The position numbers and the translations under genes were made by a program. Shown here piece after piece: positions 6,525 to 46,190 of a stretch of DNA of 55,667 nt. This stretch comes from a virus (lineage: Duplodnaviria; Caudoviricetes). The notes under the pieces are model-generated. The model saw nothing but the letters and a program-made list of their open reading frames with translations. It made no database searches and was not told where the DNA came from. Positions within the stretch are counted from its first letter, which is position 1. Each line of letters begins with the position of its first letter. The stretch covers positions 1-55,667 of IMG/VR virus record IMGVR_UViG_3300023171_000315; one strand, written 5' to 3'.

Positions 6525-8438
6525 TTATCCTATTGCAAATCTGTAGGTATTATCTTCTGTTGGGATTATGGCTACAATTTGCGCTTGTAAATCATCTTGA
6601 GCGATAAATGGGCTATTCGTCGATGCACCACCACCGCTTGTTGCTCCTGCTCCAATGGGAACCTGAATGGTTTGAGTAACTCCTGAAATATTTCCGTAAA
6701 CTTCAACATCAATGGCGATATTAAGATCAGGCGCATGGTCGATAACCAAATCAACAACAGCATTTCTTGCACCGCTATGCGCAACAGATTGAACAGATAC
6801 TGTAGCAATTGGCTTTAACATTGCGCAAGTGCCATTCGCTGGATCATTCGCAAATGCTTGACCCTCTATCAAATAATTCGTGTCAGCCATTGCAGCAGTT
6901 TGTGCAGCTGCTTTACTTACTGATGATGTATATTTCTTTCTGAAAGTCACCTGAGTACCTGAATAACCTACTCCACAATCATTCCTAGTAAACGGCTCCG
7001 CTCGTTCATAGGAATATGCCCGTGGTTGTTGAATGGCTCCTGGTTGTTTAATTGCGTTTGCCTGAGCAATAGTTTTTCTCAACAACTTTGTTGCAAAATC
7101 GATATCCGGATAGTCACTTAAAACGATCTCGGTTACTTTATCCAAGATATAATCCATTTTAAAAGATTCAATCGGAATTAGGCGATTTACTCCAAGGGAT
7201 GCATCGGTAAGTAAAGCCAATTCGCCCTCTATTAATTTTCTGCCTTTTCTTTTAAAATCGATTGGATCTGGAGTAACCTCATATTTAGATTTATAGTAGT
7301 TAACCGAATTAAAATAATCAGTGCCAAATTGCAGCAAAACAGCTTCCCATTGAGTTACAAATGCAGTCGGCATATCAATATCAACCACAATAAAGAGATC
7401 GCCGATTGAAGCCTCTATTCCAGGTTGCGGCACAACCAAAGACTGTTCGGTTTTAACGGTATCAATTACAAACTTTTTTGTTGAATTATCAAATGATGAT
7501 ATCTCAATTTCATAACCTGCCAATTGTCCTGTTTGAAATATTACCTTCGCTGTTAAGCCTGGCTTTAAAGCGGTGTTAACATTGAAAGGAATATCAATAC
7601 ACTCGAAAGTAAATTCATCAGTGGTATCACTTACTGTCCCTATAAATTGAGGGTAAACTTCTGGAAACTCAACGTTATCTTCATTTGTCGGAGGATTGTT
7701 TGGGCTTGGCGTCAACTCCAAAGGTCCATTTAATTGTAGCTTTTGCGAAAAGTTACGATATCCATCAGGAAGATTACGAGAGCCACCAAAAACGGTTAAC
7801 CTGGTTACTGGTGCATTCTCACTTTCATTGGTTCGCTTTATCTCATATAATCCATTTCCTTGTCCATAAGCAAATGATAACCCACTATTCTTAGTCTTTA
7901 CTTTAAAATTGATGGTGCGATTGGTAAACCAAACCTCTGTTTGAAATACATCAACTAATTGAGATATCGCCTCTAAGCAGTTGGCATTACTAAAATTCAC
8001 CAATCGAGTTTCTGTAACGTCGATCGCTCCCAATGACCAAACACCTGGCCATTCTCGATTTAGATTTAAAATTAACAGATTGGCAAAAGTGAGAAGGTCT
8101 CCATTGATACTGAAATCCTTTTCCTTCAGCTGATTTGTCGGGTCAATCGAATAATATCTTAAGCGCTTAAATTTATACCACTCTGATTCAAAAATACAAT
8201 TAAACAAATGTCGCTTGTCGGCAAGTTTGGTAATTACGGGAAGTTTATCAATCAGGTAATAAGTATTACCCATTATCTCAACCGTATCATCTAATAATAA
8301 TGCTACTGGGCTGCTGACTGTCTGCATGAAGTCAAGCGCAACGAAGTTTACCCCGTTGCGTTGTCTTTGTAAATAACCACCAGCCAATGGATTGACATCC
8401 AAGATTGGCGTACCCCTTCGTTTAATTGTTAATGCCAT
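6525..8438 (-). CDS. Tail tip/hub (Tal-like) protein with a DUF5977-like repeat
   Basis: GQGNGLYEIKR...VTRLTVFGGSRNLP typical of Bacteroidota phage tail proteins; FTRNDCGVGYSG repeat near the C-terminus. Confidence 0.75.
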   Translation of the reverse strand: MALTIKRRGTPILDVNPLAGGYLQRQRNGVNFVALDFMQTVSSPVALLLDDTVEIMGNTYYLIDKLPVITKLADKRHLFNCIFESEWYKFKRLRYYSIDPTNQLKEKDFSINGDLLTFANLLILNLNREWPGVWSLGAIDVTETRLVNFSNANCLEAISQLVDVFQTEVWFTNRTINFKVKTKNSGLSFAYGQGNGLYEIKRTNESENAPVTRLTVFGGSRNLPDGYRNFSQKLQLNGPLELTPSPNNPPTNEDNVEFPEVYPQFIGTVSDTTDEFTFECIDIPFNVNTALKPGLTAKVIFQTGQLAGYEIEISSFDNSTKKFVIDTVKTEQSLVVPQPGIEASIGDLFIVVDIDMPTAFVTQWEAVLLQFGTDYFNSVNYYKSKYEVTPDPIDFKRKGRKLIEGELALLTDASLGVNRLIPIESFKMDYILDKVTEIVLSDYPDIDFATKLLRKTIAQANAIKQPGAIQQPRAYSYERAEPFTRNDCGVGYSGTQVTFRKKYTSSVSKAAAQTAAMADTNYLIEGQAFANDPANGTCAMLKPIATVSVQSVAHSGARNAVVDLVIDHAPDLNIAIDVEVYGNISGVTQTIQVPIGAGATSGGGASTNSPFIAQDDLQAQIVAIIPTEDNTYRFAIG

Positions 8439-9892
8439 TAGTATAATTCCAAAAACTCCGTATTATCTTCATCGAAATCATTCACTCCAAAGTCAAATAC
8501 ATAAATATCGGATTCGCTTGGTGTCCCAATCAAATCAACCATCTTATTCATGTAATTGATTGATTGAGTTGTATCGGCAAAACTGCTTTTACCCGTAATT
8601 GGAGTTCCGTCAGACTTGTTCTTACGCATCATTGACCCGTTAACGGCATAGTTATCAACTCCTGCCCCTAATTTAGCTGCAACTTTTTGAGGGTAAGCCA
8701 TTGTTGAAGGATCTGGATATCCAGCAGGGATTGAAGTTCCATACCATGCAATTCTTTTCCCTGACCAGTCGGCGATCAACGGTCTAAGGAAGTCTGCGCA
8801 TAAATCTGTAATTCTATCCACTGTTTTTCCTGAAGTATCCGTGCCTGGATGTAATCCATCTGGGATGACATTTGTAAAAGTGTTTACTCCATCCCTGTTT
8901 ATCACATTCATCTTTGTAGATAAATCTAAGAATGGAGCATTCCAGTAATCAGCGATAGCCTTTTGAGTAACAATGAGCGGCGCAGTTAAATTCTTGCCTG
9001 ACTTGTCTTTCGAGAAGAACCCGATAAAAGCAATAATCGCTCTAGGTTTTGCGTTCAATAGAGCAGAAATTACAGTATTGCTTGCTCCTTGAAACGTATT
9101 AAGGTTTTTGTTAGTTGAAGCCACATAACCTACTCTCTGAATCCCTGTGCTTATTCTTATTGTTCTGCCAGTTAACTGTGCATTCTCTACGTTTATTCTG
9201 ATGAAAGCGCTATTAGTAGGAGTGGTAAAGTTACCTAGCTCGTTTGGCTCACCACCACCGACCTTCCCAATTAATGATTGCGAAGGATTGTAGAAGAATA
9301 CTGTATTTGCAAAACCTTTATAAGAACAATAATACTCTTCATTTGGTTTAATTGGCAAAAATTGACTATAATTAAAACCACCGCCTACTGTTGGAATACC
9401 AGAGCCATCCAAATACATACCTGATGTGTAATTCATGTCTAAAGTAATGTTTGGGGCTGTTTCAGACTTAACTCCCTTAACTTTGCCGACGTACTCGGCT
9501 ACATCTACTATTTTTGTGTAGTCAGCTAAATCTATTGCAGACGAAGTATAATCGGCTATCCAGTTTGACCCATTAAAAATAAGTTTTGCAGATAAAACTG
9601 GATTTCCGGCAATACTTGCTGGGATTGTAATCGGAACGTTGTTAATATCCTTAAAATTTGGATAAGTAACACCTGGCTTGGCATCATAAACTTGAGCAAG
9701 TGCGGGACTACCAGGATTAGTAGAAGCAACAGCTAAACCTTTATAGTCACCTTTAATATCATTTATTGCGAAAAGATTTGTATCTCCGTTTATCGATACG
9801 CCTAGTATTTTTGCGCCAGCAATAGAAGTAGCTAAATTAAACTGATCTATGCTTTGGTTTTCATTTAATTGCGGTAATGTTTCTTCTGCCAT
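8438..9892 (-). CDS. Tail protein with circularly permuted SGNH/GDSL esterase domain
   Basis: DGLHP (block V) precedes WYGTSI (block I), NYAVNGS (block II) and FGVND (block III). Confidence 0.7.
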   Translation of the reverse strand: MAEETLPQLNENQSIDQFNLATSIAGAKILGVSINGDTNLFAINDIKGDYKGLAVASTNPGSPALAQVYDAKPGVTYPNFKDINNVPITIPASIAGNPVLSAKLIFNGSNWIADYTSSAIDLADYTKIVDVAEYVGKVKGVKSETAPNITLDMNYTSGMYLDGSGIPTVGGGFNYSQFLPIKPNEEYYCSYKGFANTVFFYNPSQSLIGKVGGGEPNELGNFTTPTNSAFIRINVENAQLTGRTIRISTGIQRVGYVASTNKNLNTFQGASNTVISALLNAKPRAIIAFIGFFSKDKSGKNLTAPLIVTQKAIADYWNAPFLDLSTKMNVINRDGVNTFTNVIPDGLHPGTDTSGKTVDRITDLCADFLRPLIADWSGKRIAWYGTSIPAGYPDPSTMAYPQKVAAKLGAGVDNYAVNGSMMRKNKSDGTPITGKSSFADTTQSINYMNKMVDLIGTPSESDIYVFDFGVNDFDEDNTEFLELY

Positions 9893-27661: not shown

Positions 27662-28061
27662 TTATTCTTGATCCTCTTTAGGCAACGTGAATGTTGTTTT
27701 GAATAAATCGAAGAATACATTTTCACATAAGTGTTTGCATATTTCTTTAGTGGGAAATACTCGGCGGGAACCGACATGCGAGAAGGCGATGTCGTAGTAG
27801 TAGTCGATAGACGAGAACCCAGAACCCGAACTTGGCGATAAGTCAAACCAAGGGTAATATTTACGCTGATCCCAATCAGTCCAATCAATTGTTTTGCCTT
27901 CAGATAGCCAAGAAGCTTTGCTTATCATCCAAATCTTAAATTCAGCAATGGCAAGCTGCTTTATCAGCTTCGTCATATGCTGATGTATCTGGTAATAAAT
28001 TCGGATCTCTACCCAAAATTTTGCAAATGTCCTCCCATGAGGTTACGTCTAAAATTTTCAT
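27662..28061 (-). pseudogene. DGR target 3 (remote), interrupted by one extra base near 27953
   Basis: ATG at 28061 gives MKILDVTSWEDICKILGRDP... (similar to target 1 IKTYEDICKIDNVDP) and stops at 27942. Removing one base joins it to ...AIAEFKIW...KYYPWF plus the VR, giving 132 aa. Confidence 0.8.
27763..27831 (-). repeat. DGR variable repeat VR3
   Basis: 69-nt ungapped match to TR with 14 mismatches, all at TR adenines. Confidence 0.92.
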
Positions 28062-28534
28062 ATATTCTATTTTTTAATTGGTGTCAATCAAATGTTGGCA
28101 GGTGTAAAAAAAGTACGCTGAGGAACCACTCTCAACGTACTAACCTAAACCAACTAAACTGCGCCTTACACGCTTTACCTTTGCCTCATCCTATCGGATT
28201 GCCCAGCGAATGGGGACTTTTAATTCGGTACGGGGCTCCCCTGCTACTAGTTATCAGATTTCGTATGTAATTCGACTGTCCCTCTTTATTAAGCTTCTCA
28301 AACAGTGTCGAAGCAGCTACGTATTTAGCGCGTTATCCTTTCCGAATCGTACTCAGCCTCACTCATGATTATGGCCTCCCTTACATACTAATTTCATCAA
28401 ACCAAAGAACCCCTATCTTGATGCATTTCTTTCGCCATGCATTGGCATTTGGTGCGGACTATTGGCACCCGAATTACCCTTACTCTAGTTAGGGCTTCAA
28501 TACATCGTTTCTAAATGTACTCGTCCAGTCCATG

Positions 28535-28734
28535 TGAACAGACCCCGACTTGAACGGGGATGATACCTTTGTCTGAGTGTTCTTTTAGATTAATTAATTC
28601 TGAAGGGATATCTCCCAACATTTTCATCAATCGCCTTTACGTAGATCCCAAGCTTCTCTGGCTGTCGCATTACGCTTTGAATAGGAGGTATCACGTGTAT
28701 AAACTCTAGCGTCTACCAATTCCGCCATCTGTTC
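28535..28734 (-). ncRNA. tRNA-like element (Leu-type D arm) with a large internal insert
   Basis: Acceptor GAACAGA/TCTGTTC plus A, D arm GCG-GAATTGGTAGA-CGC, T arm CCCCG-TTCAAGT-CGGGG; no canonical anticodon arm. Confidence 0.6.
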
Positions 28735-28921
28735 AATAATAACAAACCTTCTACCTCTGAACCATACTTGCGCTGTGTAACTATGTCGGGCATCTTAACC
28801 TGATTCGGCAGGTTTGTTAACGCCAAAGCCACGACTTGTTTCAGATCGTGGCGACTTTCCCATGTTGCAGGGCTTGATTCAAATAACGTTGAGCGATTTG
28901 CTTATACAATAATACAAACAA

Positions 28922-28946
28922 TATTCAATATATGCAATATTGCATA
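28922..28946 (-). promoter_or_regulatory. Operator/promoter motif A, copy 1
   Basis: TATTCAATA-TATGCA-ATAT-TGCATA. Confidence 0.7.
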
Positions 28947-28977
28947 ATAATTATTTTCACTTTGGCTCAAATGGCCA

Positions 28978-40077: not shown

Positions 40078-40951
40078 TTATTATTCGATTTAGTTTAAGT
40101 TGTTGACGTTTTATATCTAATAGTTCGGGATGATTAAGCAATTCCTTCTGTAATTCCTTATTTACTTTTTTGCTTTTCATCGCCATGTACATTGCTACCT
40201 TATTATCTGTTGGATTATCTGGGTCATTATTTCTTAATATATTTTCCTTTCTGGTAATGCATTCTAAATTATTTAATTCTACATTCAAAGAGTCACCATC
40301 TTTAAACCAAAGGCAATGATTCTTTGGGACTTTACCATTTTGTTGTTCCCATAAATATGTGTGAAGCGGAACCCAATTACCAATGCTCAGGCAGGTATAC
40401 TTGTAAGGATTACCTCCCCTTTTGGCATGGTCATACCTAATTGTAATTTTACCAACTTCATCATAACAGTTATGAGGCTTATTGCCTTTATTAAAACGGG
40501 TCGCTTTGGTTCGCTCAATAGCTTCAGCACTCATGTATTCTGATTGCTTTTTACCTTTATTGAAAGAGACATTACCCTTAGCTATACGGCTATTTTTTAT
40601 CCGTTGCTCAATAATTTCTCGGGGGACAACTAAGTTTAGCTGCCGCATTCTGGTCTTAACTTTCACCTCACTACATCCTAAAACGTCTGCTATCTGTTGT
40701 GGAGGAGTTGATAAATAATTTGCAGTTATGTAAGCATCGTCTTCGAGTGAGCAGCTAGTTCTTCTGGATGCTTTAGCAGCAGCAAATGATCGACTTATTG
40801 CATATGGTACAATTAGCCCGTTGCGTTTTTTATACCCACTTACACCACCTTCACCAATTCCAATCGCTATTGCAATATCTGAATTGCTTTGTTTTAGGTA
40901 ATAGGCTCGTATATACGTTTCCTGATCCGGTGTTAATTTTGTTTTTGCCAT
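40058..40951 (-). CDS. HNH endonuclease-domain protein
   Basis: H..LWEQ.NG.VP....L.FKDG...N....NLECI...EN. Confidence 0.75.
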   Translation of the reverse strand: MAKTKLTPDQETYIRAYYLKQSNSDIAIAIGIGEGGVSGYKKRNGLIVPYAISRSFAAAKASRRTSCSLEDDAYITANYLSTPPQQIADVLGCSEVKVKTRMRQLNLVVPREIIEQRIKNSRIAKGNVSFNKGKKQSEYMSAEAIERTKATRFNKGNKPHNCYDEVGKITIRYDHAKRGGNPYKYTCLSIGNWVPLHTYLWEQQNGKVPKNHCLWFKDGDSLNVELNNLECITRKENILRNNDPDNPTDNKVAMYMAMKSKKVNKELQKELLNHPELLDIKRQQLKLNRIINEKTGN

Positions 40952-42288
40952 TATGCTACAGCCTCCATTCTTTGCGTTTTATTTTGGCGAACTTTTACCG
41001 GTTTCAATCTGCGTTTGATCAAGTGCATATTTTTGTTAACCAAGTCAATAATCTCATTGTGGTGTTTGGTATCCTTATTTCCCTTACCTCGCGCTTGAAG
41101 GATGCGAAAATCTTTTAGAGACACTTCAACCGTTTCGGCAGGAATGCCATTAATTTTCGCGGATAAAACAAGCGAATCAGGTTTTGAGAAGTAATTATTT
41201 GTGAATACACAATGTCCATGTGCTTTGCCCTCTTCAAAAAACTCTTTAACGCTTTCTAGCACCTTAATGGATAAATCGCCAGTCCTAAGCATAATTCCAA
41301 AGAACATACCTTTATCTTTGATGTAATCAGAACTATCCATTTCTGCTTTTATTCGTTGTTTTTCAGCATTCTCTGCATCTCTGATTTCATTTTGTCTTCT
41401 TAAAATCTCTTGTTGCCGTTCCACGTGTTTGTTGTGTACTTGTTTGTAATTTTTAGCACATACATATTTTGGACTTAAAAGGTCTTTGCCAGCCTTTTCG
41501 ATAAGCTTCGTGTAGTCAAGCCATGTAATTCCATCAGTAATAATGAAGTTGTTACGGATAGCGATCTTTATGGAAGACCATCGGTCTCTTACTTCATAAG
41601 ATCGGTTACCTACTCGGCAAGAAAGTAAATCATATTGTTTTGCTTTGATTAATGTTTCAGAAATGCTATCATTTAACAACTTGATGAACAGATCGTACAG
41701 CACAATGTCTTTAACTTTCGTTGTAAACCCGTTACGTTTATAAATTGGCAAACATTTGTGCTGTGGATGTACAGCCGTAGTCCAGGGATAATAATTTGTT
41801 CCGCGATAACTCCTGTAACCACCACGTATTTCCATATCACCTGTGTAACTTTCATTACCCATAAATTGAACCCTCCCAACTATCGTAACTTCTGAATTAG
41901 GTTTAAACCATTGCTGCACGATTTCATAAGTGTTTTGATGTGCTTTTTCGCCAATTTTATGGTATGACCATATTTCAAAGTGCCTGATAACTTGGAATCC
42001 TCCACTGACATCAACTATAGCAAGCTTTTCGCGGTTTTGACTAAAAACCCGTTTTGTAGTATCAATAATCTCAAGCTTTATTTGGCATGATGGACATTTG
42101 CAAGTTTTAACTTTTTGAGCACCCTTCCAAATATGGCCACAATCAAGACATGCAATCTGTTTTTTAGTTCTATAGCCAACATGTTTTAGGCAATTTTTAT
42201 ACCCCCATAATTCTTACTTTTTGGTAATGTTAGGTAAAGCCTTGCTTAACCCGATTACCTCATGATCTAGTTTAGTCCTTGGCTTCAT
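40951..42288 (-). pseudogene. PcfJ-like protein with an in-frame TAA at codon 25
   Basis: ATG 42288 MKPRTKL...ITKK*ELWGY...CLDCG...CPSC continues without further stops into the 41919 ORF; EG....HCV motif; next to a PcfK-like gene. Confidence 0.75.
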
Positions 42289-42289
42289 A

Positions 42290-42655
42290 TTAGAAAAGTG
42301 ATGCTTGGTTAGCTACTAATGGTTTAGCTTTTTTGATAACCGGTAATGGTTTAGCTTCGTGTTTATCTTCCTTATTCTTTGATTTAGTTATCGAATGGTT
42401 AACTACAACTCGGCCATTTGATGGTTTAACATCTTTTATGTCATCTTCATCATAATAATGGACAGCCATTGCAAATATTTCTTCATCTGCAAAACCATTA
42501 CAGCCTGTTTTCTTAACCTCACTAAAAATATAGTTGATGCATTCATCGATACTTTTACCTGCCTTCTTCAGTGTTTCAGCAAATAGTGAATCAGATTTAC
42601 CGCGACTTTCGAGGTAATCACTTAAAATTTTTGCAAATGGTTTAGATGCTTTCAT
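42290..42655 (-). CDS. PcfK-like protein
   Basis: KSIDECINYI..EV...GCNGF.D.EIF.MAVHYYDE. Confidence 0.85.
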   Translation of the reverse strand: MKASKPFAKILSDYLESRGKSDSLFAETLKKAGKSIDECINYIFSEVKKTGCNGFADEEIFAMAVHYYDEDDIKDVKPSNGRVVVNHSITKSKNKEDKHEAKPLPVIKKAKPLVANQASLF

Positions 42656-42746
42656 CTTTGGTTTTAGTTTAATCCCTCAACTCACGGGTAGACTAAGTCC
42701 GCTTTAAAAGTTGAGGGATGGGTTTATATTTATGTTAATTGTTTTC

Positions 42747-43712
42747 CTATCCTGTGCAGTAGCCGCCGTGGCAGCCACCACATTGCATCTGAAATAAGTT
42801 TGTTTGTATTCCAATATCTCTGATATCTTTCATCGCCATCGTATGGTGAAAAGTTGATTTATCGTCTTTCATCATTTCAATCATTACCATTGAATTCATT
42901 GTTGCTGGTTGTGTTTCGAAATTTTGTCTTAATTGTTGCGGATGCTTCCAAAAACAGAATTGGCAATTACTATCTAATGGGAATTGGATATCCTTATCTC
43001 TCCAAAATCTTTGAACATCTGACTGAGTTATTCCGTCCTCTACAAGTGGGAATTCGCCAATTCTGAATGGAATCTCTGCCCACCTGTGACGATGTAGTAA
43101 ACTCCATCCATGATAGTAGTTTATCTCGCAATCTTCTGGCGTCACTTTACATTTCAGCAAAACCTTTTTCATGTTGCCTGGAACATCTTCGCCAATATTA
43201 TCATACACGAATTCACAGTGAGTAGAATACATGAAAGTGTCTTTAAAATTGTTTACTCGATGTGCTTCATCCGATCTGAATCCAACTCGCATCTTGCATG
43301 GTAAAGAATGATACATTAACAAATGCTCGAATATTGGCTTTATCTTAAATTCCGTAGTACACCATCTGTGGTGCTTATTTGGAAGTGTCTGCTTCGTTTC
43401 CACTAAACTCTGAAATCCTTTACCACGTAACCAAACTATTTCCCTCCCCGTCATTTGTTCTAAATCAAGCATGGTTTTGATAATCAACGGATCTTCTGCT
43501 GTACCCAAAAATTCCAACTGATGGCTACAATATTTTTGAAGCTTATCATTAACGATCTGCCTAACGTGGTTATCAATTTTGAAGGTTGTTGATCCCGCAT
43601 TTGCATTATGACTATCAATACACACCAATGCAAACAGAGAAACATCTGCAGGGTAATGCATTTCAAGAAATGAGCTCGTTTTACCACCAGAAAGACTATT
43701 TACTGTTATCAT
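42747..43712 (-). CDS. PAPS reductase-like (PP-loop) protein with Cys clusters
   Basis: SLSGGKTS, RWCTTEFK, GFRSDE, SNC.FC and a terminal CxxxxC motif. Confidence 0.75.
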   Translation of the reverse strand: MITVNSLSGGKTSSFLEMHYPADVSLFALVCIDSHNANAGSTTFKIDNHVRQIVNDKLQKYCSHQLEFLGTAEDPLIIKTMLDLEQMTGREIVWLRGKGFQSLVETKQTLPNKHHRWCTTEFKIKPIFEHLLMYHSLPCKMRVGFRSDEAHRVNNFKDTFMYSTHCEFVYDNIGEDVPGNMKKVLLKCKVTPEDCEINYYHGWSLLHRHRWAEIPFRIGEFPLVEDGITQSDVQRFWRDKDIQFPLDSNCQFCFWKHPQQLRQNFETQPATMNSMVMIEMMKDDKSTFHHTMAMKDIRDIGIQTNLFQMQCGGCHGGYCTG

Positions 43713-43752
43713 TGCACCTCAAAACCCCGCTATTCTCATAGCAGGGCGTTTA

Positions 43753-44049
43753 TTATGTAAACTCGTATCGTTCACCAACTTCAACTATTGTGGTTGTGAA
43801 GGGGAAATCATCGGCGCTCATTTGGGATACTATATCCATGAGCACTACGCTTCCGGTGAACACTAACCGAGGTTCGTTATTTAATAATATTGACAGATAA
43901 AGACATTTGCCTTTGCCTTCGTATTTTGAATCAACTATCTCGAATCCGTTAACAACGATCGGTTGATTGAATACTTTTTTAATTTTAATTTTTTCGCCTT
44001 CTCTTTTTTTGATTGATGGGCGGATGTTTAGGTCTTTAAAGTTTTTCAT
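43753..44049 (-). CDS. 98-aa beta-rich protein downstream of the DGR RT (candidate non-Avd accessory)
   Basis: Co-oriented, 26 nt after the RT; alternating beta pattern and FTGS...FPFTTTI, unlike helical Avd. Confidence 0.55.
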   Translation of the reverse strand: MKNFKDLNIRPSIKKREGEKIKIKKVFNQPIVVNGFEIVDSKYEGKGKCLYLSILLNNEPRLVFTGSVVLMDIVSQMSADDFPFTTTIVEVGERYEFT

Positions 44050-44075
44050 AATGGAGAGATTTAGATTTGCTTTTC

Positions 44076-45032
44076 CTATTCTTTTGGAGGGATAAGCTTT
44101 TTAATTAGATGTTTGGTATTAGCGTGTTTACACCAACCCAGATAAGATGCAAGTGAACTTCGGTTTATTCCTTTCGCTACCTTTCTGGCAAATTCACGTT
44201 TGATGGTTGGCCTTAATAATACATGAGTGTGGTAATGCTTATAGCCTACAAAGTCAACACTGCGAGAGGCTACAGGAAACACTTGCCAGTTTTCCTTAAC
44301 TGTTAAGTTTAATCGATTAGCTAGGTATGCCGTAATGCCATTAAGCGCCTTATGCAAGTAATTTTTATCATGATGCAGTATTACGATATCATCAGCGTAC
44401 CTGAAATAATATTTAACGGCCTTTTGCTCTTTGATCCAGTGATCGAAGTAGGCCAAATAAAAGTTGGCAAAGTATTGGCTTAAATAATTTCCGATCGGTA
44501 AACCTGGTGCACTGTCAATGATACCATCAAGAAGGGCAAGCAGCTCAGTATCTTTTATTTTCTTGCGCAATAAAACTTTAAGTATTGCATGATCGACATT
44601 CGGATAGAACTTCTTGATATCAAGTTTTAAGCAATAAGTAGTACCGACAACATCGCAAAGTGCCTCACGTAAAGCTCTGCTAGCTGCATGAATACCTTTG
44701 CCTTTAATGCAACTGTAAGTGTCCGTTGTAAATACAGATACAAACATTGTCTCTAGCAAATTCATGATAGCATGGTGAACAATTCGATCACGATATGGAA
44801 GGATCGATATTACGCGCTCTTTACGTTCGAAAATAGTCCGTGTCCTATAGGTGCCCGTTTTATAAGTACCCGTAATTAAATCACGATAGATATCGGCAAT
44901 ATTTTGATCGAAGTTCTTATCAAATTCAATAATCCCCGACTGTTTTGCTTTCCCCTTGCGTGCAAGCTTATCAGCTAAAAGCAAGTTGTCTATGCTGCAG
45001 ATGTTCTCAAATAAATTACCGATTCTTTTCAT
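44076..45032 (-). CDS. DGR reverse transcriptase
   Basis: RDRIVHHA, LKLDIKKFY, GLPIGNYLSQ (DGR-type SQ), RYADD; compact 318 aa with no maturase or endonuclease domain. Confidence 0.96.
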   Translation of the reverse strand: MKRIGNLFENICSIDNLLLADKLARKGKAKQSGIIEFDKNFDQNIADIYRDLITGTYKTGTYRTRTIFERKERVISILPYRDRIVHHAIMNLLETMFVSVFTTDTYSCIKGKGIHAASRALREALCDVVGTTYCLKLDIKKFYPNVDHAILKVLLRKKIKDTELLALLDGIIDSAPGLPIGNYLSQYFANFYLAYFDHWIKEQKAVKYYFRYADDIVILHHDKNYLHKALNGITAYLANRLNLTVKENWQVFPVASRSVDFVGYKHYHTHVLLRPTIKREFARKVAKGINRSSLASYLGWCKHANTKHLIKKLIPPKE

Positions 45033-45154
45033 ATTATTTACAGGCCGTTAAGCCTTTGCTTTGTAGGTCGTTTTCACTTTCGTTACCAACGCCCTTATAA
45101 GTAATTGTTATTTTTTGCCAAGAGGCAAGGTCTGTGCTGACAATATTTTTAGCA

Positions 45155-45229
45155 AATTTGGGAACTGACATTCGAGTTGTCGTTGTCGTAGTTGTAGTCG
45201 TTATACGAGAACCTAGAACCTGAACCAGC
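45155..45229 (-). repeat. DGR template repeat (TR)
   Basis: GCTGGTTCAGGTTCTAGGTTCTCGTATAACGACTACAACTACGACAACGACAACTCGAATGTCAGTTCCCAAATT; AAC-rich, intergenic, just upstream of the RT. Confidence 0.95.
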
Positions 45230-45253
45230 ACTCAGCACACCACCCTTAATTTT

Positions 45254-45628
45254 TTATTTCATAAAGCCTTTATACTCTTCCAGAAATGTTTTTCCTGCGA
45301 ATTTGGCTAGATCACGCGTTTTAAGAACAAGGCGGGAACCGACAGTCGAGCGGCCGCCGTCGTAGTTGCAGTCGTCATACGAGAACCCAGAACCCGAACC
45401 AGCCTTATCCCGCATATCAAACCAAGGATAATATTTATATTCATCCCAGTTATTCCAATCTGGAACCCAACCTTCGTTTAATACTCTGTTGATTCGAAGT
45501 ACTTTTGCAAAGCTATTGATAGCAATATCTTCTGGTGTAGTTGCATTTTGGATCGGCAATGAGGCCACTGGATCTACATTGTCAATTTTGCAGATGTCTT
45601 CGTAAGTTTTAATATTTTCTAAATTCAT
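45254..45628 (-). CDS. DGR target 1 (124 aa)
   Basis: KYYPWF...GSGSGFS-VR-VGSRL. Confidence 0.9.
   Translation of the reverse strand: MNLENIKTYEDICKIDNVDPVASLPIQNATTPEDIAINSFAKVLRINRVLNEGWVPDWNNWDEYKYYPWFDMRDKAGSGSGFSYDDCNYDGGRSTVGSRLVLKTRDLAKFAGKTFLEEYKGFMK
45329..45403 (-). repeat. DGR variable repeat VR1
   Basis: 75-nt ungapped match to TR with 14 mismatches, all at TR adenines. Confidence 0.95.
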
Positions 45629-45639
45629 GATATTATTGA

Positions 45640-46110
45640 TTAACCATTAATAAATTCGTTGTATTCGGCAGTAAAGGTTTTGCCAGCATATTCTGCCAAT
45701 GCTGATGTTTCAAGTAAAAGGCGGGAAACGACATCCGAGCGGACGTAGACGTAGGCGTAGACGAAAAACGAGAACCCAGAACCCGAACCAGCAGAATTGA
45801 ACCAAGGGTAGTACTTGTATACGCCCGCATCTTTATAGTCAAGATACTTACCGCCATTAAGCGCATAAACAATCATCTTGCATTTTTTGTAGCCAACTTC
45901 ATCAGGTGTGTCATTAGCTGTACGCTCTGCAAATTGTTCCGCTGTTTCGTTGTGAAATGCCAGTACATCAGCAAATGACTTGAATACATCCTGAGTTTTA
46001 AGGCCCAATTCTATTGGAGTGAAATTGGCCTTTAGTAAAACATCAAGGGCAGAGTTTTGACCTAACAAACCTTTAGCCTGGTCAATGTTTAATTCAATTG
46101 ATTTTTTCAT
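45640..46110 (-). CDS. DGR target 2 (156 aa, likely start MKKSIE)
   Basis: KYYPWF..AGSGSGFS-VR-VVSRL; paralogue of target 1. Confidence 0.9.
   Translation of the reverse strand: MKKSIELNIDQAKGLLGQNSALDVLLKANFTPIELGLKTQDVFKSFADVLAFHNETAEQFAERTANDTPDEVGYKKCKMIVYALNGGKYLDYKDAGVYKYYPWFNSAGSGSGFSFFVYAYVYVRSDVVSRLLLETSALAEYAGKTFTAEYNEFING
45718..45792 (-). repeat. DGR variable repeat VR2
   Basis: 75-nt match to TR with 18 mismatches at TR adenines and one G>T. Confidence 0.93.
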
Positions 46111-46190
46111 TTTATTATATGATTTAGTGAAATTTTGCACCTAAAAAGCCCGCTTATATCTAAGCAGGCTGAATATCAATTGCTATTGAT

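What the first reader, a model, noticed from the sequence alone, without database searches (positions are those of the whole stretch)
43753..46110. DGR that diversifies a family of three small non-structural proteins
Seen: a DGR-type RT, a 75-nt TR and three VRs. VR1 has 14 of 14 mismatches at TR adenines, VR2 has 18 at A plus one other, and VR3 has 14 of 14 at A. The three targets are 124-156 aa paralogues (KYYPWF...GSGFS-variable-V[G/V]SR) with no signal peptide. The VR is followed by about 25-35 further residues, and none of the genes is in the tail module. Sixteen core adenines over 11 codons allow about 4^16 DNA variants per target. Known: classic phage DGRs such as Bordetella BPP-1 mutate the C-terminal CLec domain of a tail adhesin. 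Inference: this element hypervaries small intracellular binding proteins, for example for host takeover or counter-defence, and not receptor tropism.
Basis: partly seen in the sequence, partly recalled or inferred. Interest (0 to 1): 0.92.

Follow-up and report, generated by a model that had tools for sequence, protein, structure and literature searches.

The report
Phage DGR diversifying small early-region proteins
A prophage of a soil Bacteroidota bacterium carries a mutagenic retroelement that rewrites one loop of small soluble proteins encoded among its replication genes, not of a tail fibre, and the same gene set recurs in many related prophages.

Summary
On the minus strand lie a 73-nt template repeat, a DGR-type reverse transcriptase and three variable repeats. 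Their mismatches reproduce exactly: 14/14, 18+1 and 14/14 at template adenines. One correction: the third target is frameshifted in this record.

The element belongs to a conserved cassette: 2-3 tandem small paralogues, TR, an Rfam RT-17 RNA, RT, and a basic 98-aa OB-fold-like protein. No Avd was found. An RT follows the targets in 77 of 80 viral loci and lies within 3 kb in 49 of 68 species-genome loci, nearly all Bacteroidota.

The cassette sits in early, recombination or replication regions of unrelated phage backbones. The target model matches no solved fold (best Z 3.8).

The family is also a remote second DGR target in a LoVEphage-group phage and in a crAss-like phage, where it shares the tail protein's TR. 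The LoVEphage case probably equals the "non-structural" Quimbyvirus target of Benler 2021.

Fused two-copy forms and a weak co-fold score hint at a dimer.

An intracellular role is plausible but unproven. The scan noted this cassette type before on other DNA.

Verdict: new variant of a known kind; interest 0.62.

The parts
46135..46168 (-). 34-nt terminator-like hairpin plus RBS-like element just upstream of target 2. It is one of two copies that bracket the cassette.
   Evidence: family D3, 79% identical to 43712-43745; only these 2 copies in the window at up to 3 mismatches; the pattern was built from these two copies
45640..46140 (-). Target 2, the long paralogue (166 aa from GTG 46140, or 156 aa from ATG 46110)
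   Evidence: (phrog_11581, 1.9e-10)
45720..45792 (-). VR2
   Evidence: 19 mismatches to the TR, 18 at TR adenines plus 1 G>T; relatives in runs X2 and X3 differ here at TR-adenine positions and agree with the TR at the G>T site.
45254..45628 (-). Target 1, the short paralogue (124 aa); it starts 12 nt after the stop of target 2
   Evidence: (phrog_11581, 5.4e-20)
45331..45403 (-). VR1
   Evidence: 14 of 14 mismatches at TR adenines
45157..45229 (-). Template repeat (73 nt, 22 adenines). Its last three bases are AAA where all three VRs have GCC, which is an IMH*/IMH-like 3' boundary.
45055..45132 (-). Structured spacer RNA between TR and RT, matching Rfam RT-17 (RF03020)
   Evidence: 40.8 bits against a gathering score of 40.4; E 1.2e-06 on the 351-nt stretch
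44076..45032 (-). DGR-type reverse transcriptase, 318 aa
   Evidence: RVT_1, 2e-20; phrog_1423, 3.1e-123; 55% identical to the RT of crAss-like phage cr56_1
43753..44049 (-). ORF98: a basic 98-aa OB-fold-like protein and candidate accessory factor
   Evidence: phrog_19665; within 120 nt after the RT in 69 of 77 viral loci; 47 of 49 genome loci with an RT
43712..43745 (-). Second copy of the 34-nt hairpin/RBS element; it ends at the start codon of the PAPS-reductase-like gene
27662..28061 (-). Target 3, a remote paralogue 17 kb from the TR, frameshifted near 27953-27954 in this record
   Evidence: (one base left out at 27953 in contigs of X2 and X3)
27763..27835 (-). VR3 (the repeat proper starts at 27831)
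   Evidence: 14 mismatches at TR adenines, and none at other bases after the first 4 nt

Best explanation
This is a genuine diversity-generating retroelement. It belongs to a conserved lineage of Bacteroidota (pro)phages.

Shown:
- One TR, followed by a structured RT-17-type RNA and a DGR-type RT, has supplied adenine-mutagenised copies to three paralogous genes.
- The cassette (2-3 tandem small paralogues, TR, RNA, RT, ORF98) is conserved across many phage backbones.
- Within the family, variability is confined to the 11 codons that carry TR adenines.
- The same protein family is also a remote second target of tail-fibre DGRs in two other phage groups.

Inferred:
- The TR plus RT-17 transcript is reverse-transcribed by the RT. 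The basic OB-fold-like ORF98 is proposed to take the nucleic-acid-binding accessory role that Avd has elsewhere.
- The cDNA replaces the VR up to a fixed 3' boundary (TR ...CCCAAA against VR ...CCCGCC).
- The products are small acidic cytoplasmic proteins. They have a conserved helical scaffold with the invariant KYYPWF and VGSRL motifs and one hypervariable 12-residue loop.
- They probably work as a pair of long and short paralogues, so that two variable loops are shown together.
- They act early in infection, or in the lysogen, as adaptable binders in phage-host or phage-phage conflict. They are not receptor-binding proteins.
For: DGR identity. TR/VR mismatches fall at TR adenines only, apart from one G>T. 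The RT family matches. Rfam RT-17 lies between TR and RT.

Lineage.
- 197 of 218 matched viral-contig stretches encode relatives, and 80 loci were kept.
- 77 of 80 loci have an RT after the last target.
- 72 of 76 testable loci have at least one A-specific TR-VR pair within 300 nt upstream of the RT. The other 4 have their TR further upstream.
- ORF98 follows the RT in 69 of 77 viral loci.
- In species-representative genomes 49 of 68 loci have an RT within 3 kb, and 47 of those 49 have ORF98 next to it.

Selection pattern. In 98 aligned members, mean entropy is 2.75 bits at codons 84-93 and 95, against 1.53 bits elsewhere. V96, R99 and L100 are invariant and S94 (TR codon without A) is S in 91 of 98.

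Variation between samples. In VR2, 10 of the 11 listed differences in run X2 are at TR-adenine positions. The eleventh restores the TR base.

Non-structural context. The window neighbours are SSB, a PAPS-reductase-like gene, PcfK and PcfJ. Other loci carry MuB-like, DUF3164, RecT, SbcC-like and metallo-beta-lactamase genes on the same strand. BI-TP1 gp84 lies among methyltransferases. cr56_1 gp09 lies 55 kb from its RT.

Remote-target status. BI-TP1 gp84 shows 19 A-mismatches over 122 nt. cr56_1 gp09 shows 21 A-mismatches over 74 nt, against the same TR as the Mtd-like tail protein.

Soluble nature. There is no hydrophobic segment and the pI is 5-6.

Pairing. Sixteen proteins of 282-360 aa matched, and the six I read are two fused copies. 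The co-fold of the long and short paralogues scored 0.39 (runs 0.39, 0.42, 0.06) against a best control of 0.01. The tool rates this as weak support, more often wrong than right unless the pairing was likely beforehand. The partner's pLDDT is at least 74 and the runs agree in at least 69% of contacts.

ORF98. Median pI is 9.2. The model has pLDDT 89.1. The best consistent fold matches are SSB and PriB OB folds, Z 5.4-4.1 at rmsd about 3 A over 61-68 residues. No PF05635 (Avd-type) match exists in the provirus at E<=1.
Against: Nothing here shows where the proteins are in the cell or virion, when they are expressed, or what they bind.

- Gene position is weak evidence. Small virion or tail-accessory proteins can be encoded outside the tail module, and target 3 lies in the morphogenesis half of the genome.
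- In two other phage groups the family shares its TR with a tail protein. That could mean the two products act together at the virion.
- The fold model has pLDDT below 50 across the VR (residues 86-93). A minimal CLec-like loop therefore cannot be excluded.
- The ORF98 fold matches are below the Z level at which chance resemblance is rare (note). Foldseek gives nothing at E<=0.001.
- The co-fold support is weak.
- The runs with variant VRs hold relatives about 92% identical, not this same phage. They show past diversification, not present activity.
- Target 3 is broken in this record.
- 12 of 55 genome loci with full flanks have no RT within 3 kb.
Confidence: 0.55

Rival explanations
1. The small variable proteins are virion-associated. 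For example they could be tail-tip or fibre accessory subunits, or adhesin chaperones that act with the receptor-binding apparatus. The DGR would then still serve tropism.
For: In cr56_1 the small protein and the Mtd-like tail protein are diversified from one TR. In the LoVEphage group the RT lies beside a tail collar fibre gene according to PMC8525569 (passage read). Roux et al. expected unannotated viral target clusters to be unknown structural proteins (preprint, section 8). Target 3 lies between the portal and head genes.
Against: In this lineage no tail-type target is seen beside the RT. In the 80 viral loci only the small paralogues gave TR-VR pairs within the loci. The cassette lies on the strand and side of early or recombination genes in several backbones. 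No attachment domain, repeat or hydrophobic segment is present. The window's fibre-like genes (6525-9892) contain no copy of the VR core.
Confidence: 0.2
2. The proteins are prophage-encoded sensors or excluders. They would be expressed in the lysogen as adaptable recognition modules against superinfecting phages or other mobile elements, which benefits the host.
For: The element is a provirus with an integrase and a repressor. Target 3 sits in an island with a Cor-like superinfection-exclusion hit, which is weak at E 8e-4. DGR-diversified putative antigen sensors are described for cellular genomes; I saw only the search listing of preprint 10.1101/2023.09.22.558884.
Against: No effector domain is fused or conserved next to the targets. 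The longer forms are only two-copy fusions. The family also occurs in crAss-like phages, for which no lysogeny module was seen in the regions read. The cassette is co-oriented with lytic early genes, not with the repressor.
Confidence: 0.15
3. The element is an inactive relic. The VRs were diversified in the past and the cassette no longer homes.
For: Target 3 is frameshifted. VR2 carries one non-adenine change. The source run's contig shows no variant at the VRs, although contigs drop rare variants. No GC-rich hairpin follows the VRs (z-scores 1.25, 0.00 and -0.85).
Against: The RT, ORF98, TR, RT-17 RNA and two targets are intact. TR adenines are preserved (22 of 73). The cassette is conserved with A-only mismatches in 72 of 76 loci. 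Near relatives carry different VRs beside a nearly unchanged TR region: 2 other letters and 2 gaps in 185 nt (X3 record 22).
Confidence: 0.08

Closest known systems
Second DGR target of Quimbyvirus ('ORF 84/80'; Benler et al. 2021, PMC8008677), which appears to be the same phage as LoVEphage. It is represented here by Bacteroides phage BI-TP1 gp84.
   Same: The proteins are homologous: tblastn E 5e-10, 29% identity over 97% of target 1. They share the KTYEDAC N-terminal part, the aromatic-PWF motif, the IGSRL end of the VR and the C-terminal helices. gp84 is a DGR target, with 19 A-mismatches. It is encoded away from the structural genes, among methyltransferases. It was read in print as non-structural and conflict-related.
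   Different: There the small protein is a remote second target of a DGR whose RT lies beside a tail-fibre target and is read in three frames. Its VR is about 120 nt and is of the long type that the paper calls C-type lectin. Here the whole DGR is dedicated to 2-3 tandem copies, the VR is 73 nt, and the RT is only 31% identical. A conserved ORF98 follows the RT. That BI-TP1 gp84 equals Quimbyvirus ORF 84 is my inference. It rests on both phages being reported about 95% identical to the same B. dorei prophage. I did not compare the sequences.
Bordetella phage BPP-1 DGR (mtd, avd, TR, brt), as described in Wu et al. 2018 (PMC5758913)
   Same: TR-to-VR transfer with adenine-specific changes. A fixed 3' boundary. 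The RT is adjacent to the TR. The VR lies in the 3' part of the target gene.
   Different: The target here is not a tail fibre and gives no CLec match. No Avd is present. About 25 residues follow the VR. There are three targets, one of them 17 kb away. No GC hairpin follows the VR.
DGRs of crAss-like phages (for example cr56_1, NC_055890.1)
   Same: This is the closest RT found in the phage collection: 55% amino-acid identity and 65-67% nucleotide identity. These DGRs mostly lack Avd according to PMC12386605 (passages). cr56_1 encodes a member of the small-protein family that is diversified from its TR.
   Different: The main target there is an Mtd-like tail protein next to the RT. No ORF98 homologue lies after the RT (the next gene is a holin). 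That RT frame contains 5 TAG codons.
Avd, HRDC, MSL and CH1 accessory proteins of DGRs (Wu et al. 2018, section 21)
   Same: ORF98 is small and basic like Avd (median pI 9.2 against the reported 9.5). It is conserved next to the RT.
   Different: The predicted fold is a beta-rich OB-like barrel, not a helical barrel. There is no PF05635 match. CH1 is reported as 160-169 aa and acidic, so ORF98 is not CH1 either. Whether ORF98 is one of that paper's 'PAG1-4' could not be checked, because supplements are closed.

Membership tests
Diversity-generating retroelement | Reverse transcriptase of the DGR type encoded next to the template repeat | tested here: met
   RVT_1 2e-20; phrog_1423 3.1e-123; 55% identity to a crAss-like phage DGR RT. 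The translation contains IGNYLSQ and YADD. That these are DGR-typical motifs is recalled, not tested.
Diversity-generating retroelement | TR/VR pair whose differences lie at TR adenines | tested here: met
   14/14, 18/19 and 14/14 inside the repeat. The 15-nt core gives 5 matches against 0.55 expected.
Diversity-generating retroelement | VR inside the 3' part of a protein-coding target, with variable codons on a conserved scaffold | tested here: met
   entropy 2.75 bits at the 11 A-bearing codons against 1.53 bits elsewhere.
Diversity-generating retroelement | Fixed 3' boundary (IMH in the VR, non-identical IMH* in the TR) | tested here: inconclusive
   All three VRs read GCC where the TR reads AAA. 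R99 and L100 are invariant in 98 of 98 members, as expected for a segment that is not transferred. Function as an IMH is not testable here. No GC hairpin lies downstream.
Diversity-generating retroelement | Accessory variability determinant (Avd) | tested here: not met
   No PF05635 match in the provirus at E<=1. Avd is not a universal feature: 29% of DGRs in Wu et al. have no accessory gene.
Diversity-generating retroelement | Evidence of diversification between related copies | tested here: met
   In VR2, 10 of the 11 listed differences in run X2 are at TR-adenine positions. The runs hold relatives about 92% identical and are contigs only. Present activity is not testable.
C-type-lectin-fold DGR variable proteins (Mtd/TvpA type) | C-type lectin fold around the VR | tested here: inconclusive
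   The model has pLDDT 83.4, but below 50 at residues 86-93. Foldseek against PDB gives no hit at E<=0.001. The all-against-all search gives a best Z of 3.8. The PDB profile search gives nothing below E 0.33. hhalign against the cr56_1 tail target shows no alignment. However, relatives share a TR with that tail target, and Benler 2021 calls the Quimbyvirus homologue a C-type lectin protein.
C-type-lectin-fold DGR variable proteins (Mtd/TvpA type) | VR at the extreme C-terminus | tested here: not met
   Two predicted helices (residues 105-123) follow the VR.
phrog_11581 / Quimbyvirus ORF 84-type small DGR targets | Sequence homology over the whole protein | tested here: met
   phrog_11581 at 5.4e-20, 1.9e-10 and 1.4e-05. 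tblastn to LoVEphage-group phages at 5e-10 to 5e-8 over 97% of the query. Alignment A1.
Rfam RT-17 RNA (RF03020) | Score at or above the curated gathering threshold, upstream of an RT gene | tested here: met
   40.8 bits against 40.4, which is a marginal pass. The match is at 45132..45055, 22 nt upstream of the RT start.
Avd (for ORF98) | Helical-bundle Avd fold or family match | tested here: not met
   The ORF98 model has 7 strands and 3 short helices. The nearest folds are OB-type SSB/PriB at Z 5.4-4.1. No Pfam or NCBIfam hit.

The most novel reading that the evidence does not exclude
Bacteroidota phages carry a dedicated hypermutation system for an intracellular two-chain binder. A long and a short paralogue pair up, and in some phages they are fused into one chain. 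Each contributes one DGR-diversified loop on a fold not yet seen in solved structures. The pair is used early in infection to recognise fast-changing host defence or rival-phage proteins. The retrohoming machinery of this lineage would use an OB-fold protein and an RT-17 RNA in place of Avd.
Probability: 0.25. Interest if true: 0.88.

Novelty: new variant of a known kind. Interest (0 to 1): 0.62.

Why it matters
DGR targets of phages are usually read as receptor-binding proteins. Large surveys assumed that unannotated viral targets are unknown structural proteins (Roux preprint, section 8).

This lineage is common in environmental and host-associated Bacteroidota: 197 viral-contig relatives and 68 loci among species-representative genomes. 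Its whole DGR is devoted to small soluble proteins encoded with early, replication or recombination genes.

If these proteins act inside the cell, phages use targeted hypermutation for something other than adsorption, most plausibly the arms race with host immunity. The cassette is compact: about 2.4 kb, 125-aa scaffolds and a 12-residue loop. That makes the question directly testable.

The conserved ORF98 and RT-17 RNA offer a way into Avd-independent retrohoming, which Wu et al. inferred but left open.

Finding the same family as a hidden second target in crAss-like and LoVEphage/Quimby phages suggests that remote small targets are overlooked when only the RT neighbourhood is scanned.

Tried and rejected
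Fold of the target. Foldseek against PDB found no match at E<=0.001. VIA-align against 48,161 chains gave a best Z of 3.8 and no chain at Z>=5. An HMM search of PDB sequences found only one chance-level row, E 0.33. Pfam and NCBIfam found nothing. The ESM Atlas returned only unnamed viral clusters. hhalign of the family against the cr56_1 tail target gave no alignment. Pfam on BI-TP1 gp84, cr56_1 gp09 and gp51 gave nothing meaningful. None of this shows that the fold is new.

ORF98. Foldseek gave nothing at E<=0.001; the best was 0.09, to HIN/OB domains. The PDB profile search gave only chance-level rows.

Shared backbone. The window's own flanking genes are found in at most 7 of 80 related loci. 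The cassette therefore moves between backbones, or its flanks diverge fast.

The 34-nt bracket as a general mobility signal: rejected. In 59 loci the best upstream/downstream match was 18.3 of 28, against 18.1 for mismatched pairs.

GC hairpin after the VRs: none found.

tRNA genes: none in the window. The only Rfam family at gathering score is RT-17.

Expression. No RNA holder was listed for the stretch, so nothing can be said about expression.

Co-fold of the long and short paralogue. The result was weak support only. I use it only together with the fused forms.

Literature. I found no description of this cassette (small tandem targets plus ORF98) in:
- Wu 2018 (find-mode passages and section 21)
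- the Roux 2020 preprint (sections 7, 8 and passages)
- the Macadangdang 2024 preprint (passages)
- Benler 2018 (passages)
- the tentaclin paper (abstract and outline)
- the zeta-crAss paper (passages)
- searches.

The supplementary tables of Wu 2018 and Roux 2021 list all targets and may well contain members of this family.

The name and origin of the 'RT-n' motifs, and the DGR-typical RT motifs, are recalled. One search found no paper naming RT-17.


Full report
1. WHAT IS IN THE SEQUENCE

All parts lie on the minus strand. The repeat finder reports a three-copy 70-nt family at 45160-45229, 45334-45403 and 45723-45792. A search with the 15-nt core finds a further copy at 27812-27826: 5 matches where 0.55 are expected, and no shuffle of 100 reaches 5.

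I took the copy next to the RT as the template (45229..45157; 73 nt, 22 adenines).
- VR1: 14 of 14 mismatches at template adenines.
- VR2: 18 at adenines plus one G>T.
- VR3: 14 at adenines. Its three other differences sit in the first four bases, outside the repeat.

The eleven codons 84-93 and 95 carry sixteen adenines.

The RT (45032..44076, 318 aa) matches RVT_1 at 2e-20 and phrog_1423 at 3e-123.

Between TR and RT, Rfam finds its family RT-17 at 45132..45055. The score is 40.8 bits against a gathering score of 40.4, a marginal pass.

A 98-aa ORF (44049..43753) follows the RT.

No Avd-type family (PF05635) matches anywhere in the provirus at E<=1.

2. CORRECTIONS TO THE OBSERVATION

Targets 1 (124 aa) and 2 (156 aa from ATG, 166 aa from GTG) are intact. 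They are separated by 12 nt.

The third target is not intact in this record. The part homologous to the family's N-terminus starts at 28061 and runs into a stop. The VR-bearing ORF (27976..27662, 104 aa) is in another frame. Contigs from two other sequencing runs that hold relatives lack one base at 27953, which would give a single frame. So this copy is a frameshifted gene, an N-terminally truncated one, or an assembly error.

The record is an IMG/VR provirus rated 100% complete. Its annotated genes are:
- integrase at 1-1125
- fibre-like genes and tape measure at 6.5-14.7 kb
- major head protein at 19.6-20.7 kb
- portal and large terminase at 29-32 kb
- helicase at 36.4-37.9 kb
- PcfJ, PcfK and a PAPS-reductase-like gene at 41-43.7 kb
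- SSB at 46.2-46.6 kb
- repressor at 52.1-52.9 kb

Targets 1 and 2 therefore sit in the replication region. Target 3 sits between the portal and head genes, among small accessory genes.

3. IT IS ONE MEMBER OF A CONSERVED CASSETTE

The targets match phrog_11581, a family of unknown function. A protein search returned 654 relatives at E<=0.001 among 667 candidates of 68-217 aa.

Viral contigs. Scanning with the family alignment gave 218 matched stretches. Of these, 197 encode relatives and 80 loci were kept.
- 77 of the 80 loci have an RT. The exceptions are L043, L084 and L085.
- In 76 of the 77 the RT lies directly after the last target on the same strand. In L086 it lies far upstream.
- Most loci carry two or three tandem paralogues, one of about 157 aa and one of about 125 aa.
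- A scan for template/variable pairs allowed at most one non-adenine mismatch per 50 nt and required at least five adenine mismatches. It found pairs in 72 of 76 testable loci. VRs per locus were 0 in 4 loci, 1 in 10, 2 in 53 and 3 in 9.
- The four loci without a pair have an extra ORF before the RT. Their TR was found further upstream by the earlier scan.
- A homologue of the 98-aa ORF lies within 120 nt after the RT in 69 of 77 loci.

Species-representative genomes, an independent set. There were 75 matched stretches, 69 relatives and 68 loci.
- An RT lies within 3 kb in 49 of 68 loci, and in 43 of the 55 loci with full flanks.
- The 98-aa ORF lies beside the RT in 47 of those 49.
- The record titles are almost all Bacteroidota, including Pedobacter, Sphingobacteriaceae, Dyadobacter, Flavobacterium, Chryseobacterium, Elizabethkingia, Apibacter, Chitinophagaceae and Tenacibaculum.
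- There are also two Ignavibacteria/Chlorobi MAGs and one Methylacidiphilales MAG.
- The nearest is Pedobacter cryoconitis, at 71% identity.

4. THE FAMILY SHOWS THE IMPRINT OF THE DGR

In 98 aligned members, mean column entropy is 2.75 bits at the eleven adenine-bearing codons and 1.53 bits elsewhere. S94, whose template codon has no adenine, is S in 91 of 98 members. V96, R99 and L100 are invariant, and G97 is G in 94 of 98.

At the 3' edge all three VRs read GCC where the TR reads AAA. This is the behaviour expected of a non-transferred IMH-type boundary.

Laying contigs of four runs on the window gave the following:
- Run X1 is identical over the whole stretch and is probably the source, so it is not independent.
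- X2 and X3 hold relatives. One 600-nt piece differs at 50 positions.
- In VR2, ten of the eleven listed X2 differences are at template-adenine positions. The eleventh is the site of the window's lone G>T change, where the relatives agree with the TR.
- The TR region of X3 differs by 2 letters and 2 gaps in 185 nt.

These runs are contigs of related phages. They show diversification in the lineage, not present activity of this copy.

5. GENOMIC CONTEXT

The window's own flanking genes recur in at most 7 of the 80 viral loci.

Clustering the loci's ORFs and annotating representatives gave two recurrent contexts.
- Mu-type transposable phages. Upstream on the same strand are a MuB-like protein (19 loci), an ATPase (20 loci) and DUF3164 (14 loci). 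Downstream on the opposite strand are a Mu-type portal (17 loci) and a morphogenesis gene (22 loci).
- Phages with an SbcC-like gene (8 loci), a RecT gene (9 loci) and a metallo-beta-lactamase gene (8 loci).

In every annotated case the cassette is on the early, recombination or replication side.

The proteins have no hydrophobic segment (maximum 19-residue Kyte-Doolittle mean 1.15) and a pI of 5-6.

6. THE SAME FAMILY IS A HIDDEN SECOND TARGET IN TWO OTHER PHAGE GROUPS

tblastn of target 1 against GenBank phages found 10 records.

LoVEphage-group phages. In Bacteroides phage BI-TP1 the homologue is gp84 (194 aa). It lies among methyltransferase genes. The RT is more than 55 kb away and is read in three frames. 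The 3' part of gp84 matches a repeat beside that RT with 19 adenine mismatches over 122 nt. The only other mismatches are at the very ends.

CrAss-like phages. In cr56_1 the homologue is gp09 (135 aa), which lies among small hypothetical genes. It matches the same TR that serves the Mtd-like tail protein next to the RT, with 21 adenine mismatches over 74 nt.

Benler et al. 2021 (PMC8008677; passages read) described a second DGR target in Quimbyvirus. [quoted passage not shown] That paper and the LoVEphage paper (PMC8525569) both report about 95% identity to the same Bacteroides dorei prophage. I therefore infer that BI-TP1 gp84 corresponds to that ORF. I did not compare the sequences. This is the closest published relative of the present targets.

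7. FOLD

An AlphaFold2 model of target 1, built from 98 sequences, has mean pLDDT 83.4 and pTM 0.79.
- Helices lie at residues 9-16, 32-51, 105-114 and 116-123.
- Short strands lie at 69-71 (the KYYPWF motif) and 81-83.
- Residues 86-93 of the VR have pLDDT below 50.

Foldseek finds nothing in the PDB at E<=0.001. The exhaustive aligner finds a best Z of 3.8. A profile search of PDB sequences finds nothing. So neither a C-type lectin nor an Ig fold is recovered.

Because the VR is poorly modelled, and relatives share a TR with a lectin-type tail protein, I leave lectin membership open.

8. THE 98-AA ORF

The family is basic, with a median pI of 9.2. The model has pLDDT 89.1 and is a beta-rich barrel with one helix between strands.

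The top-scoring row (Z 6.2) has an rmsd of 13.1 A, so I set it aside. The best consistent matches are OB folds of single-strand-binding proteins and PriB, at Z 5.4-4.1 and rmsd about 3 A over 61-68 residues. These scores are below the level at which chance arrangements are rare, and Foldseek gives no significant hit.

ORF98 is not Avd-like in fold. By size and charge it is not the CH1 protein of Wu et al..

I propose it as the accessory nucleic-acid-binding factor of this lineage. The basis is conserved adjacency, charge and fold. This is an inference.

9. PAIRING OF PARALOGUES

Searching for longer relatives returned 16 proteins of 282-360 aa among 8,000 scored candidates. I read six of them. 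Each consists of two complete copies in one chain, and each copy has its own VR-like segment.

A co-fold of the window's long and short paralogues scored 0.39 (runs 0.39, 0.42, 0.06) against a best control of 0.01. The tool rates this as weak support, more often wrong than right unless the guess was likely beforehand. The partner's pLDDT is at least 74 and the runs agree in at least 69% of contacts.

Taken with the near-constant tandem arrangement, these results make a two-subunit binder a reasonable hypothesis and no more than that.

10. COMPARISON WITH WHAT IS KNOWN, AND NOVELTY

The mechanism class is a known one, the DGR.
- DGRs without an accessory gene are known: 29% in Wu et al..
- Non-structural phage targets have one published precedent, the Quimbyvirus case.
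- Large surveys state that VR regions are systematically C-type lectin, and that unannotated viral target clusters are probably structural (Roux preprint, sections 7-8; Macadangdang preprint).

I did not find the following in the texts I could read:
- a DGR lineage wholly dedicated to tandem 125/157-aa soluble proteins in early regions
- its conserved ORF98 and RT-17 RNA
- the recurrence of the same family as a remote second target in crAss-like phages
- the fused two-copy forms

Earlier first-stage notes of this scan describe the same cassette type on two other genomes (e1-5327790, e1-5644773). They also describe the 34-nt bracket in this window (e1-6298684).

I class the finding as a new variant of a known kind, with interest 0.62.

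11. VERDICT

- The DGR and its three VRs are real (confidence about 0.95).
- That the cassette is a conserved, evolutionarily active lineage is well supported.
- That the targets are intracellular adaptable binders, not virion parts, is the best reading at about 0.55. The rivals are a virion-associated role at 0.2 and a lysogen-expressed exclusion sensor at 0.15.
- An inactive relic is unlikely for the lineage. It is possible for target 3 of this copy.

Noticed in passing
window 27950-27976 (- strand): Target 3 has a one-base difference (TT against T at 27953/27954) from relatives in runs X2 and X3. It splits the gene into two frames. This could be a pseudogene, a truncated product from the ATG at 27976, or an assembly error.
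   Followed up: partly
window 43712-43745 and 46135-46168: Two 79%-identical 34-nt elements bracket the 2.4-kb cassette exactly. Each is a terminator-like hairpin, a T run and an AGGTGCAA RBS-like end. There are only two copies in the window. Other loci show no comparable bracket: 59 loci gave 18.3 of 28 against 18.1 for the control. An insertion scar or a local regulatory motif is possible.
   Followed up: partly
window 28062-28977: A stretch of about 900 nt between the portal gene and target 3 has no minus-strand ORF of 60 aa or more. It has no tRNA and no Rfam family at gathering score. Relatives show small indels at 28189-28212.
   Followed up: no
L089-L091 (PQ571265.1, 5079-6133): The RT of Bacteroides phage BI-TP1 is matched in three pieces in different frames. 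This agrees with the three-frame RT that Benler 2021 reported for Quimbyvirus.
   Followed up: no
L088 (NC_055890.1, 59460-60440): The RT frame of crAss-like phage cr56_1 contains 5 in-frame TAG codons and no other stop. This suggests that TAG is read as a residue in that phage.
   Followed up: no
P0124-P0139: These are natural fusions of two family copies in one 282-360-aa chain, each copy with its own variable segment. One example is from Sphingobacterium griseoflavum.
   Followed up: partly
window 40951-43712: PcfJ-like and PcfK-like genes, families named after conjugative-plasmid proteins, and a PAPS-reductase-like gene lie directly downstream of the cassette in this prophage.
   Followed up: no
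L095 and L096 (Dyadobacter sp. CY261 Scaffold1_1): There are two family loci 4.6 kb apart in one genome. One has no RT within 3 kb. In all, 12 of 55 genome loci with full flanks lack a nearby RT. These may be remote targets like VR3, or undiversified members.
   Followed up: no
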